Assembly (NCBI RefSeq): GCF_006345805.1
Contig: NW_021833128.1
Location: 1 to 29,435 of the forward strand
DNA: 29,435 bases
Direction of reading: 5' to 3'
From: Octopus sinensis
Lineage: Eukaryota
Numbering within the stretch: position 1 is the stretch's first letter; the number at the start of each line of letters is the position of its first letter. Made by a program: the position numbers. Positions 1 through 3,822 of this stretch are shown here, piece by piece.

Positions 1-3000
1 AACTGATTCTGAATACATCATAAATAACCAACCTTATGTAGCGAAGACGAACAACAACTGTTCACTCGGCCAAGGCCAACATGGAATGTTTATAAATCAT
101 TATCCGGTAAATGGCGGGCTTTTTACGAACTGCATGTCGGGTAATGAAAAGTATTTCGGAATAAGTTTAACAATTAAGGATAATCTCTTAATAAGGGATC
201 TTAACAAGAAATTATCGGGTAGCTAGCGTGAAAACCTCATAAAGAAAAGAATCCGAAAATAATTTTTTCCTTTTGAACAAATTAATTATATCTATATTGT
301 ATAAAGGGCATTATTACACATAAATGCCTCACACTAGAGGGACAAAGTCATTACTACCAAAATTATACTAATCATACCCAAATGCAGTTTCTTCAAAGCA
401 AGACATTTAAAAATGAATTATGTTCTGTATCACCGTGATTTCACATACAACTTGCGTCTAATGATCGTCAGCAGAACTGATTCTGAATACATCATAAATA
501 AACCAACCTTATGTAGCGAAGACGAACAGACAACTGTTCACTCCGGCCAAGCACATGGAATGTTTTTATAATCATATATCCGGTAAATGGCGGGCTTTTT
601 ACGAACTGCATGTCGGGTAATGAAAAGTATTTCGGAATAAGTTTAACAATAAGGATAATCTCTTAATAAGGGATCTTAACAAGAAATTATCGGGTAGCTA
701 GCGTGAAAACCTCATAAAAGAAAAGAATCCGAAAATAATTTTTTTCTTTTGAACAAATTAATTATATCTATATTGTATAAAGGGCATTATTACACATAAA
801 TGCCTCACACTAGGAGGGACAAGTCATTACTACCAAAAATTATACTAATCATACCCAAATGCAGTTCTTCAAAGCAAGACATTTAAAAATGAATTATGTT
901 CTGTATCACCGTGATTTCACATACAACTTGCGTCTAATGATCGTCAGCAGAACTGATTCTGAATACACATCATAAATAAACCAACCTTATGTAGCGAAGA
1001 CGAACAGACAACTGTTCACTCCGGCCAAGCACATGGAATGTTATAAATCATATATCCGGTAAATGGCGGGCTTTTTACGAACTGCATGTCGGGTAGAAAG
1101 TATTTCGGAATAAGTTTAACAATTAAGGATAATCTCTTAATAAGGGATCTTAACAAGAAATTATCGGGTAGCTAGCGTGAAAACCTCATAAAAGAAAAGA
1201 ATCCGAAAATAATTTTTTCTTTTGAACAAATTAATATATCTATATTGTATAAGGGCATTATTACACATAAATGCCTCACACTAGGAGGGACAAAGTCATT
1301 ACTACCAAAAATATACTAATCATACCCAAATGCAGTTTTTTCAAAGCAAGACATTTAAAAATGAATTATGTTCTGTATCACCGTGATTTCACATACAACT
1401 TGCGTCTAATGATCGTCAGCAGAAACTGATTCTGAATACATCATAAATAAACCAACCTTATGTAGCGAAGACGAACAGACAACTGTTCACTCCGGCCAAG
1501 CACATGGAATGTTTATAAATCATATATCCGGTAAATGGCGGGCTTTTTACGAACTGCATGTCGGGTAATGAAAAGTATTTCGGAATAAGTTTAACAATTA
1601 AGGATAATCTCTTAATAAGGGATCTTAACAAGAAATTATCGGGTAGCTAGCGTGAAAACCTCATAAAAGAAAAGAATCCGAAAATAATTTTTTTCTTTTG
1701 AACAAATTAATTATATCTATATTGTATAAGGGCATTATTACACATAAATGCCTCACACTAGGAGGGACAAGTCATTACTACAACCAAATTATACTAATCA
1801 TACCCAAATGCAGTTTTTCAAAGCAAGACATTTAAAATGAATTATGTTCTGTATCACCGTGATTTCACATACAACTTGCGTCTAATGATCGTCAGCAGAA
1901 CTGATTCTGAATACATCATAAATAAACCAACCTTATGTAGCGAAGACGAACAGACAACTGTTCACTCCGGCCAAGCACATGGAATGTTTATAAATCATAT
2001 ATCCGGTAAATGGCGGGCTTTTTACGAACTGCATGTCGGGTAATGAAAAGTATTTCGGAATAAGTTTAACAATTAAGGATAATCTCTTAATAAGGGATCT
2101 TAACAAGAAATTATCGGGTAGCTAGCGTGAAAACCTCATAAAAGAAAAGATCCGAAAATAATTTTTTTCTTTTGAACAAATTAATTATATCTATATTGTA
2201 TAAAGGGCATTATTACACATAAATGCCTCACACTAGGAGGGACAAAGTCATTACTACCAAAAATTATACTAATCATACCCAAATGCAGTTTTTCAAAGCA
2301 AGACATTTAAAAATGAATTATGTTCTGTATCACCGTGATTTCACATACAACTTGCGTCTAATGATCGTCAGCAGAACTGATTCTGAATACTCATAATAAA
2401 TAAACCAACCTTATGTAGCGAAGACGAACAGACAACTGTTCACTCCGGCCAAGCACATGGAATGTTTATAAATCATATATCCGGTAAATGGCGGGCTTTT
2501 TAACGAACTGCATGTCGGGTAATGAAAAGTATTTCGGAATAAGTTTAACAATTAAGGATAATCTCTTAATAAGGGATCTTAACAAGAAATTATCGGGTAG
2601 CTAGCGTGAAAACCTCATAAAAGAAAAGAATCCGAAAATAATTTTTTTTTGAACAAATTAATTATATCTATTTGTATAAAGGGCATTATTACACATAAAT
2701 GCCTCACACTAGGAGGGACAAAGTCATTACTACCAAAATTATACTAATCATACCCAAATGCAGTTCTTTCAAAGCAAAACATTTAAAAATGAATTATGTT
2801 CTGTATCACCGTGATTTCACATACAACTTGCGTCTAATGATCGTCAGCAGAACTGATTCTGAATACATCATAAATAACCAACCTTATGTAGCGAAGACGA
2901 ACAGACAACTGTTCACTCCGGCCAAGCACATGGAATGTTTATAAATCATATATCCGGTAAATGGCGGGCTTTTTACGAACTGCATGTCGGGTAATGAAAA

Positions 3001-3822
3001 GTATTTCGGAATAAGTTTAACAATTAAGGATAATCTCTTAATAAGGGATCTTAACAAGAAATTATCGGTAGCTAGCGTGAAAACCTCATAAAGAAAAAAA
3101 TCCGAAATAATTTTTTTCTTTGGAACAAATTAATTATATCTATATTGTATAAAGGGCATTATTACACATAAATGCCTCACACTAGGAGGGACAAAGTCAT
3201 TACTACCAAAAATTATACTAATCATACCAAATGCAGTTCTTCAAAGCAAGACTTTAAAATGAATTATGTTCTGTATCACCGTGATTTCACATACAACTGT
3301 GCGTCTAATGATCGTCAGCAGAACTGATTCTGAATACATCATAAATAAACCAACCTTATGTAGCGAAGACGAACGACAACTGTTCACTCCGCCCAAGCAC
3401 ATGGAATGTTTATAAATCATATATCCGGTAAATGGCGGGCTTTATAACGAACTGCATGTCGGGTAATGAAAATATTTCGGAATAAGTTAACAATTAAGGA
3501 TAATCTCTTAATAAGGGATCTTAACAAGAAATTATCGGGTGAGCTAGCGTGAAAACCTCATAAAAGAAAAGAATCCGAAAATAATTTTTCCTTTTGAACA
3601 AATTATTATATCTATATTGTATAAAGGGCATTATTATTACACATAAATGCCTCACACTAGGAGGGACAAAGTCATTACTAACCCAAAAATTATACTAATC
3701 ATTTGGGTATGATTAGTATATTTTTGGTAGTAATGACTTTGTCCCTCCTAGTGTGAGGCATTTATGTGTAATAATGCCCTTTATACATATTTATATATAT
3801 ATAATATAATATATATACCTAC

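What the first reader, a model, noticed from the sequence alone, without database searches (positions are those of the whole stretch)
1..3702. Tandem ~475-bp array with one hammerhead ribozyme per unit: candidate retrozyme / circular-RNA-producing element
Seen: seven complete minus-strand type I hammerheads (422, 898, 1370, 1846, 2322, 2798, 3268), spaced one unit apart, and no meaningful ORF. Established: tandem minimal type I hammerheads occur in Penelope-like retroelement pLTRs and in animal non-LTR retrozymes, whose multimeric transcripts self-cleave to monomers that circularise. Inference: this apparent satellite is a non-coding retrozyme family yielding a ~475-nt monomer or circRNA, probably mobilised by a PLE reverse transcriptase. 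I cannot tell from sequence alone whether this family has been described.
Basis: partly seen in the sequence, partly recalled or inferred. Interest (0 to 1): 0.92.

Follow-up and report, generated by a model that had tools for sequence, protein, structure and literature searches.

The report
Hammerhead-ribozyme satellite, a likely animal retrozyme
A 476-bp non-coding tandem repeat carries one hammerhead self-cleaving RNA motif per unit and fits an already known class of animal repeats that are cut into unit-length, probably circular, RNAs; cleavage itself remains untested.

Summary
TRF finds a 476-bp array at 1-3702 (7.8 copies, 96% match). The catalytic core is complete, and the topology is type I. 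Such a motif is expected about 7e-6 times per unit by chance. The excised 476-nt monomer, folded as a circle, is far more structured on the hammerhead strand (z -5.4 and -5.9) than on the other strand (-2.8) or in 24 control segment-strands (-2.6 to +2.1).

Against it: Rfam Hammerhead_1 gives 14.4 bits against a cut-off of 34. Helix II is long and mismatched. The helix III hairpin is marginal (-0.2 kcal/mol). The hammerhead region alone folds no better than shuffles. Conservation among the copies is not decisive.

Two copies cofold into a double hammerhead (-29.3 against -15.8 kcal/mol), as in newt and axolotl elements.

Best reading: a new member of the known metazoan non-LTR retrozyme or hammerhead-satellite class (confidence about 0.68). 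Interest is modest.

The parts
1..3702 (-). Tandem array of a 476-bp non-coding unit: 6 complete cleavage-phased monomers (470-476 nt) and 2 partial ones. It is cut by the window start. The functional (hammerhead) strand is the minus strand.
   Evidence: TRF; blastn; alignment A1; nhmmer; no ORF of 90 aa or more; no Pfam hit for 25 array ORFs
422..477 (-). Hammerhead copy 1 (56 nt): helix I 6 bp, core CUGACGA, 22-nt helix II, GAAA, helix III 4 bp with a 3-nt loop. Predicted cleavage after AUA, between 428 and 427.
   Evidence: Rfam Hammerhead_1 14.4 bits, below the cut-off of 34
898..953 (-). Hammerhead copy 2; predicted cleavage 904|903
1371..1424 (-). Hammerhead copy 3. An extra T 5' of helix I leaves 5 contiguous pairs. 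Predicted cleavage 1376|1375.
1846..1901 (-). Hammerhead copy 4; predicted cleavage 1852|1851
2322..2377 (-). Hammerhead copy 5; predicted cleavage 2328|2327
2798..2853 (-). Hammerhead copy 6; predicted cleavage 2804|2803
3268..3324 (-). Hammerhead copy 7, with one extra C in loop 2; predicted cleavage 3274|3273
3700..3805 (+). Inverted partial copy of the unit (profile columns 43-143, no hammerhead) abutting the array end. It forms a palindrome with arms of about 105 bp, at the RNA-sense 5' end of the array, and then decays into (TA)n.
   Evidence: blastn 93% identity; nhmmer E 6.7e-28; sequence read; reported by Rfam 'evalue' mode as sub-threshold miRNA-like hairpins on both strands

Best explanation
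The array is a hammerhead-bearing satellite of the metazoan non-LTR retrozyme type. The proposed mechanism follows. Only the sequence features are shown here; every RNA step is inferred.

1. The minus strand is transcribed as a multimer.
2. Each unit's type I hammerhead cleaves after AUA. This probably happens mainly as a double hammerhead, because the 11-nt helix III segment is nearly self-complementary and its hairpin is barely stable.
3. [quoted passage not shown]
4. A host tRNA-type ligase circularises them into a highly base-paired circRNA.
5. New arrays would arise when a reverse transcriptase supplied in trans copies the circle or a multimer more than once round.

Steps 1-4 follow the model tested experimentally for coral, mussel and axolotl elements. 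Step 5 is a published hypothesis. Which reverse transcriptase acts cannot be told from this window.
For: Motif and topology:
- The core is complete and in the correct order and topology: CUGACGA, GAAA, an A15.1-U16.1 closing pair, AUA at the cleavage site, and a C1.1-G2.1 pair. It is present in 7 of 7 complete units and only on one strand.
- Chance expectation is 7e-6 per unit at the observed stringency, and 3.7e-4 at the loosest.
- The hammerhead fold of the 56-mer is -7.9 kcal/mol, 1.2 above the MFE of -9.1. The MFE keeps helix I and the helix II hairpin.

Dimer:
- The unconstrained cofold of two 56-mers is a double hammerhead at -29.3 kcal/mol, against -15.8 for two single hammerhead folds.
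- The helix III duplex is -13.9 kcal/mol against -0.2 for the hairpin.

Precedent:
- A U.U opposition at the base of helix II also occurs in axolotl HHR_Amex2. That ribozyme cleaves 22% in 1 h as a monomer and efficiently as a dimer (PMC7229834, section 15 read).

Monomer structure:
- 2 of 6 complete monomers were folded as circles with 100 shuffles each. The minus strand gives MFE -119.8 and -121.0, z -5.38 and -5.87, with 67-68% of bases paired. The plus strand gives z -2.82 and -2.86.
- 24 control segment-strands of 476 nt from the same window give z from -2.56 to +2.09, mean -0.74.
- The structure signal is therefore on the same strand as the hammerhead. 18 of its 160 pairs are G.U.

Class features:
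- Unit size, GC of 0.33-0.34, lack of coding capacity and the tandem arrangement match the published description (PMC7229834 passages; preprint sections 5 and 11).
- Within the array the hammerhead has 2 variable columns of 58, both indels and no substitutions. The rest has 62 of 435. One-sided Fisher p = 0.011.
Against: - Rfam finds no hammerhead at gathering or at E<=10 over 1-3900. On 116 bases, Hammerhead_1 scores 14.4 bits against a cut-off of 34 (E 0.58), and it aligns only helix I and the CUGACGA box.
- Helix II is atypical: a U.U opposition at 10.1/11.1, then 3 bp, then two mismatched oppositions, then 3 bp (sequence reading).
- The 69-nt hammerhead region is no more stable than shuffled sequence: z +0.56, with 140 of 200 shuffles folding at least as well.
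- The exact hammerhead fold holds only 0.011 of the 56-mer ensemble.
- The 4-bp extension of helix I appears in the circular full-length fold but not in the 69-nt fold.
- The conservation signal is weak: 9.7% of equal-sized circular windows have as few variable columns. With 7 closely related copies there is no covariation to count.
- There is no comparative, expression or cleavage evidence.
- The window holds only one locus, so mobility is not shown.
- The unit of 476 bp is above the 150-450 bp and 170-400 nt ranges given in the 2020 paper, although it is inside the 51-972 bp range of the 2026 preprint.
Confidence: 0.68

Rival explanations
1. This is an ordinary satellite DNA whose unit happens to contain a hammerhead-like string, either fortuitous or a decayed relic. 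The RNA does not self-cleave, and the array grows only by unequal exchange at the DNA level.
For: The Rfam score is sub-threshold. Helix II is mismatched and the helix III hairpin is marginal. The hammerhead region folds no better than shuffles. Conservation inside the array is not decisive. An inversion junction (3700-3805) and an adjoining microsatellite are typical of satellite turnover. Roughly 15-780 chance motifs per Gb are expected in a genome-wide scan, depending on stringency.
Against: The chance of such a motif in one given 476-bp unit is 7e-6 to 3.7e-4. All core positions are intact in 7 of 7 copies. The strong strand-specific structure of the monomer lies on the same strand as the motif. 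The helix III segment is dimer-ready. The U.U base of helix II has an active precedent.
Confidence: 0.22
2. The repeats are tandemised terminal (pLTR) sequence of a Penelope-like element, or part of a larger autonomous element whose coding region lies beyond the window start. On this reading it is not an independent non-autonomous family.
For: PLE pLTRs carry tandem type I hammerheads, and Xenopus retrozyme families are sisters of pLTRs (preprint section 11 read; PMC7761336 passages). The array is cut by the window start, so what lies upstream is unseen.
Against: At least 7.8 uniform units with no coding sequence is unlike a two-copy pLTR. The hammerhead is not of the minimal PLE type, because helix III is present. 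There is no RT or GIY-YIG remnant in the 25.7 kb on the visible side: 0 of 179 ORFs.
Confidence: 0.07
3. This is a SINE-like, Pol III-transcribed hammerhead element of the Schistosoma Sm-alpha kind that has been tandemly amplified.
For: Sm-alpha elements carry a type I hammerhead. That comparison is recalled and comes from no call.
Against: ARAGORN finds 0 tRNA-like genes in the window. Both strands of the unit contain several runs of 4 or more T that would stop Pol III (sequence read).
Confidence: 0.02

Closest known systems
Metazoan non-LTR retrozymes (Cervera & de la Pena 2020, PMC7229834; Li, Clavereau & Pollet 2026 preprint, 10.64898/2026.07.22.740005)
   Same: [quoted passage not shown] The monomer is predicted to be a highly self-paired circle. 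The weak helix III favours dimeric action, as in amphibian elements. A U.U at the base of helix II also occurs in axolotl HHR_Amex2.
   Different: The unit of 476 bp is above the 170-400 nt range reported in 2020. Helix II is much longer (22 nt) and internally mismatched. The motif fails the Rfam Hammerhead_1 cut-off. Expression, circles, dispersal and target-site duplications are untested here.
pDo500 satellite of Dolichopoda cave crickets (PMC2837043, Results read)
   Same: It is a satellite with a unit of 463-505 bp and one hammerhead per unit. Core position 7 is usually C, as here. A double-hammerhead mode has been proposed for it.
   Different: The pDo500 hammerhead is 49 nt, with a conserved G10.1-C11.1 pair, G1.2/C2.2, and folds of -14 to -20 kcal/mol. 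Here 10.1/11.1 is U.U, position 1.2 is A, and the fold is -7.9 kcal/mol. Sequence homology could not be tested, because no pDo500 sequence was on hand.
Newt satellite 2 and axolotl Rtz_331/Rtz_353 (as described in PMC7229834, section 15)
   Same: Tandem repeats give monomeric and multimeric transcripts. The single hammerhead is inefficient because helix III is weak, and cleavage is efficient as a dimer.
   Different: The amphibian units are 330-350 bp, with a helix III of 1-2 bp capped by a tetraloop. Here helix III has 4 bp with a 3-nt loop, within an almost palindromic 11-nt segment.
Minimal type I hammerheads in Penelope-like element pLTRs (Cervera & de la Pena 2014 and Lunse et al. 2017, seen only as cited in PMC7761336)
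   Same: Type I topology, tandem occurrence, dimeric action.
   Different: The PLE motifs lack helix III nucleotides and flank an RT/GIY-YIG ORF. Here helix III is present and no such ORF is in the window.

Membership tests
Hammerhead ribozyme, type I | Conserved core: C3-U4-G5-A6-N7-G8-A9, G12-A13-A14, an A15.1-U16.1 pair, and a non-G nucleotide at the cleavage site | tested here: met
   All are present in 7 of 7 complete units: CUGACGA, GAAA and AUA
Hammerhead ribozyme, type I | Three helices around the core, with helix I open (5' and 3' ends in helix I) | tested here: met
   Helix I has 6 bp, helix III has 4 bp with a 3-nt loop, and helix II is a 22-nt imperfect hairpin. Helix II has a U.U at 10.1/11.1 and two internal mismatches.
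Hammerhead ribozyme, type I | Score at or above the curated cut-off of Rfam RF00163 | tested here: not met
   14.4 bits against 34, E 0.58 on 116 bases. No hit in the larger searches.
Hammerhead ribozyme, type I | Tertiary contact between loop 1 and loop 2 | tested here: inconclusive
   An internal loop followed by 4 more pairs extends helix I in the circular fold but not in the 69-nt fold. No contact can be scored from sequence.
Hammerhead ribozyme, type I | Site-specific self-cleavage | not testable with these tools
   Needs in vitro transcription of a monomer and a dimer
Metazoan non-LTR retrozyme | Tandem repeat of a few hundred bp, with at least 2 consecutive units each carrying a complete type I hammerhead of MFE below -5 kcal/mol | tested here: met
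   476 bp x 7.8 copies; 7 consecutive motifs; MFE -9.1 kcal/mol. Whether the authors' own rnabob descriptors accept this helix II is unknown.
Metazoan non-LTR retrozyme | Low GC (below 45-50%), no LTR/PBS/PPT, no coding capacity | tested here: met
   GC 0.33-0.34; no ORF of 90 aa or more; 0 of 25 ORFs hit Pfam. PBS and PPT were not searched specifically.
Metazoan non-LTR retrozyme | Monomer RNA predicted to be highly self-paired | tested here: met
   z -5.4 and -5.9 with 67-68% of bases paired on the hammerhead strand, against controls from -2.6 to +2.1
Metazoan non-LTR retrozyme | Expressed as linear and circular unit-length RNA | not testable with these tools
   No transcriptome on hand
Metazoan non-LTR retrozyme | Retrotransposed: many dispersed loci, with target-site duplications when present | not testable with these tools
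   One locus in the window. One array end is outside the window and the other is an inversion junction. No eukaryotic genome collection is available.
Metazoan non-LTR retrozyme | Co-occurrence with Penelope-like elements in the same genome | tested here: inconclusive
   No RT or GIY-YIG among 204 ORFs of the window. A 29-kb window says nothing about the whole genome.
PLE pLTR minimal hammerhead | Minimal motif lacking helix III nucleotides, flanking an RT/GIY-YIG ORF | tested here: not met
   Helix III has 4 bp and a loop. There is no such ORF. The nearby RT-family tail lacks GIY-YIG.
pDo500 satellite family | 49-nt hammerhead with G10.1-C11.1 and G1.2/C2.2; unit 463-505 bp | tested here: not met
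   The unit size fits, but the hammerhead positions differ. Homology of the rest of the unit is untested.

The most novel reading that the evidence does not exclude
This is a divergent lineage of type I hammerhead with a long, mismatched helix II that curated models miss, and it works only as a double hammerhead. It yields a circRNA of 476 nt, larger than those described for invertebrate retrozymes. The palindromic junction at the RNA-sense 5' end of the array (3700-3805) is a twin-priming-like footprint of target-primed reverse transcription on a repeated or circular template. That would be a first structural trace of how retrozyme arrays are integrated.
Probability: 0.1. Interest if true: 0.55.

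Novelty: new member of a known kind. Interest (0 to 1): 0.3.

Why it matters
If the motif cleaves, this locus adds a family to the hammerhead-satellite or non-LTR retrozyme class. It also shows that Rfam-threshold annotation misses members with an extended, imperfect helix II, so catalogues of animal ribozyme-derived circRNAs would be undercounts. The well-defined cleavage site and the strongly structured 476-nt monomer make it a simple test case for dimer-dependent processing. It does not open a new kind of system. The class, its life-cycle model and the proposed link to Penelope-like elements are already in print.

Tried and rejected
- **Rfam at three settings.** No supra-threshold ribozyme of any class on either strand.
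- **miRNA-like hits at 3639-3769.** They occur on both strands and are all far below their cut-offs. They are the inversion junction of the satellite, not a miRNA or a MITE.
- **First random-sequence simulation.** It timed out and printed nothing. I rewrote it.
- **My hand-written dot-bracket for the double hammerhead.** It was mis-specified and returned a nonsense energy. I use only the unconstrained cofold from that call.
- **Taxon identification.** The Atlas search and three protein searches identified transposon families but not the host. The best named hit is a spider DDE_3 protein at 50% identity. The organism stays unknown, so I could not check species-specific catalogues.
- **Pfam on 10 of the 45 ORFs of 90 aa or more.** Nothing real.
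- **Pfam on the wider ORF set.** Of 288 stop-to-stop ORFs of 45 aa or more, I dropped 84 as low-complexity (entropy below 3.55 bits). The other 204 were all scanned. The only hit was a sub-threshold CFAP65 match.
- **ARAGORN.** 0 tRNA genes.
- **Literature.**
  - 0 papers hold any of four 18-21-mers of the motif.
  - A search for 'hammerhead' with 476 bp/nt found nothing relevant.
  - A retrozyme search from 2020 onward listed no invertebrate catalogue beyond those read.
  - One paper reading failed on a too-short term and was not repeated.
  - Supplementary tables of the retrozyme papers are closed and may list this family.
- **Genome-contig scan (prokaryotes only) with one invariant 21-mer.** 0 hits.
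- **nhmmer with the unit profile.** No diverged copies outside 1-3805.
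Full report
**What is there**

The window is AT-rich (GC 0.24-0.48 per kb) and rich in microsatellites (48 TRF rows). It is eukaryotic-looking DNA with no N.

Its first 3.7 kb is a tandem array. TRF gives 1-3702, period 476, 7.8 copies, 96% matches. blastn of one unit finds 7 full copies and 1 partial direct copy at 95-100% identity. Phased on the predicted cleavage sites, there are 6 complete monomers of 470-476 nt and 2 partial ones. 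The array runs off the window start, so its true length is unknown.

It is non-coding. No ORF of 90 aa or more overlaps it, and 0 of 25 array ORFs of 45 aa or more hit Pfam.

**The hammerhead motif**

On the minus strand every complete unit carries, in order:
- a 6-nt helix I strand;
- CUGACGA;
- a 22-nt segment;
- GAAA;
- an 11-nt near-palindrome;
- the triplet AUA;
- the complement of the helix I strand.

A looser version allows helix III of 1 bp or more, helix II of 2 or more and helix I of 4 or more. It adds only alternative registers of the same cores.

All invariant core positions are present, including the A15.1-U16.1 and C1.1-G2.1 pairs. The seven motifs differ only by one extra T just outside helix I and one extra C in loop 2.

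**Is it more than chance?**

I scanned 660 Mb of Markov-1 sequence with the window's composition.

| Stringency (helix I, II, III) | Sites found | Per Gb of duplex DNA | Per 476-bp unit |
|---|---|---|---|
| 6, 3, 4 (as observed) | 5 | about 15 | 7e-6 |
| 5, 3, 3 | 25 | about 76 | 3.6e-5 |
| 4, 2, 2 (loosest) | 257 | about 779 | 3.7e-4 |

A whole-genome scan would therefore meet some chance motifs. The chance that a particular satellite unit holds one is very small. The seven copies count as one event.

**Evidence against a canonical hammerhead**

- Rfam reports no family at gathering in the whole window and no hammerhead at E<=10 in 1-3900.
- With only 116 bases searched, Hammerhead_1 scores 14.4 bits (cut-off 34, E 0.58). 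It aligns helix I and the CUGACGA box and skips helices II and III.
- Helix II opens with a U.U opposition at 10.1/11.1, followed by 3 pairs, two mismatched oppositions, and 3 pairs closed by a 4-nt loop.
- The helix III hairpin alone is worth -0.2 kcal/mol.
- The hammerhead fold of the 56-mer (-7.9) is 1.2 kcal/mol above the MFE (-9.1), and it holds 0.011 of the ensemble.
- The 69-nt region folds no better than shuffles: z +0.56, with 140 of 200 shuffles as good or better.

**Evidence that rescues it**

- The U.U at the base of helix II is described for axolotl HHR_Amex2. That ribozyme cleaves 22% in an hour as a monomer and efficiently in dimeric constructs (PMC7229834, section 15 read).
- The helix III segment here is almost self-complementary. 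Two 56-mers cofold, without constraints, into a double hammerhead at -29.3 kcal/mol, against -15.8 for two single hammerhead folds. The helix III duplex is worth -13.9 kcal/mol.
- This is the situation the literature describes for newt, axolotl and PLE hammerheads (PMC7229834; PMC7761336 passages).

**An independent signal on the same strand**

I folded 2 of the 6 complete monomers as circles, with 100 dinucleotide shuffles each, and compared them with other segments of the window.

| Sequence folded as a circle | MFE (kcal/mol) | z |
|---|---|---|
| Monomer, minus (hammerhead) strand | -119.8 and -121.0 | -5.38 and -5.87 |
| Monomer, plus strand | -95.1 and -93.4 | -2.82 and -2.86 |
| 12 other 476-nt segments, both strands (24 folds, 30 shuffles each) | - | -2.56 to +2.09, mean -0.74 |

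I chose the control segments to avoid annotated microsatellites. On the minus strand 67-68% of bases are paired, and 18 of the 160 pairs are G.U. G.U pairs exist only on that strand.

A highly self-paired monomer is a described property of retrozyme circRNAs (PMC7229834, section 14 read; PMC7761336 passages).

**Conservation inside the array**

The hammerhead has 2 variable columns of 58, both indels. The rest of the unit has 62 of 435 (19 substitutions, 43 indels). One-sided Fisher p = 0.011. However, 9.7% of equal-sized circular windows do as well. With 7 near-identical copies this test has little power, and there is no covariation to count.

**Surroundings**

- The array ends at 3702 against an inverted partial copy of itself. 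This is 3700-3805, profile columns 43-143, 93% identical by blastn, nhmmer E 6.7e-28. It decays into (TA)n.
- That palindrome is what Rfam's permissive mode lists as sub-threshold miRNA-like hairpins on both strands.
- No other copy of the unit, even a diverged one, lies in the remaining 25.6 kb.
- Of 288 ORFs of 45 aa or more in the window, I dropped 84 low-complexity ones. All 204 others were scanned against Pfam, and none hits a reverse transcriptase or GIY-YIG family.
- The ORF at 21087-21410 aligns at 54% identity to residues 990-1077 of a 1117-aa protein. That protein and its relatives carry RVT_1 and a sub-threshold zf-RVT match, and no GIY-YIG. It is the tail of a 5'-truncated retrotransposon of another kind, not a Penelope-like element.
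- The ORF at 23051-23326 is a Tc1/mariner transposase fragment.
- ARAGORN finds no tRNA-like sequence.

**How it most likely works**

What is shown here: the array, the motif, its topology, its rarity by chance, the dimer-prone helix III, and the strand-specific structure.

What is inferred, by analogy with experimentally studied coral, mussel and axolotl elements (PMC7229834, sections 14 and 15 read):
1. The minus strand is transcribed as a multimer.
2. The hammerheads cleave after AUA, chiefly as double hammerheads.
3. This releases 476-nt monomers.
4. A host tRNA-type ligase circularises them.

What is hypothetical even in the literature: reverse transcription of the circle into multi-unit cDNA, and its integration. 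The authors state that metazoan repeats show no motif that points to the mobilising element (PMC7761336 passages). PLEs are favoured because they co-occur with retrozymes in 32 of 35 species and because Xenopus retrozymes resemble pLTRs (2026 preprint, section 11 read).

**Comparison and novelty**

The locus meets the operational definition of a non-LTR retrozyme used in the 2026 preprint (section 5 read). It also matches the descriptive features of the 2020 paper, except that 476 bp is above the 150-450 bp range quoted there. It is inside the 51-972 bp range of the preprint.

It resembles the cave-cricket pDo500 satellite in unit size (463-505 bp), in C at core position 7 and in the proposed double-hammerhead mode. 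Its hammerhead differs at 10.1/11.1, at 1.2 and in stability (PMC2837043, Results read).

It is not a minimal PLE-type motif.

No searchable paper holds its sequence or a 476-nt hammerhead family. So 'undescribed' cannot be claimed.

I file it as a probable new member of a known kind.

**Verdict**

- Observation: confirmed.
- Interpretation: partly supported. The retrozyme-type reading is the best explanation, at about 0.68. The 'minimal' and 'PLE-mobilised' parts are not supported by this window.
- Main rival: a plain satellite with an inactive hammerhead-like relic, at about 0.22.
- Interest: 0.3.

Noticed in passing
window 3700-3805 (+), with 3597-3702 as the other arm: The array ends in a palindrome with arms of about 105 bp, made by an inverted partial copy of the unit, and then runs into (TA)n. 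It lies at the RNA-sense 5' end of the array. It could be an ordinary satellite inversion or a twin-priming-like integration footprint. Rfam's permissive mode mislabels it as sub-threshold miRNA hairpins.
   Followed up: partly
window 21087-21410 (+): A 107-aa ORF matches the extreme C-terminus (residues 990-1077 of 1117, 54% identity) of RVT_1 + zf-RVT retrotransposon proteins that have no GIY-YIG domain. No RT remnant was found upstream of it, so it looks like a 5'-truncated insertion. The tail domain itself has no Pfam family.
   Followed up: partly
window 23051-23326 (+): Fragment of a Tc1/mariner transposase. Relatives of 211-343 aa carry HTH_Tnp_Tc3_2 and DDE_3 domains, at 58-68% identity.
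   Followed up: partly
window 3782-29000, many sites: Very dense and varied microsatellites: (TA)n up to 370 bp, plus (GTA)n, (TTA)n, (AGT)n, (AAT)n, (ATAC)n and (TG)n. They make up 47 of the 48 TRF rows. The host organism was not identified.
   Followed up: no
window 1-3702, alignment A1: Most differences between units are single-base indels (43 of 62 variable columns outside the hammerhead), often in homopolymer runs. These may be assembly or sequencing errors rather than true variation.
   Followed up: no
window 10001-11000: A local GC peak (0.478) in an otherwise AT-rich window. ORFs there (10088-10384 and 10466-10810, + strand) have no Pfam match.
   Followed up: partly
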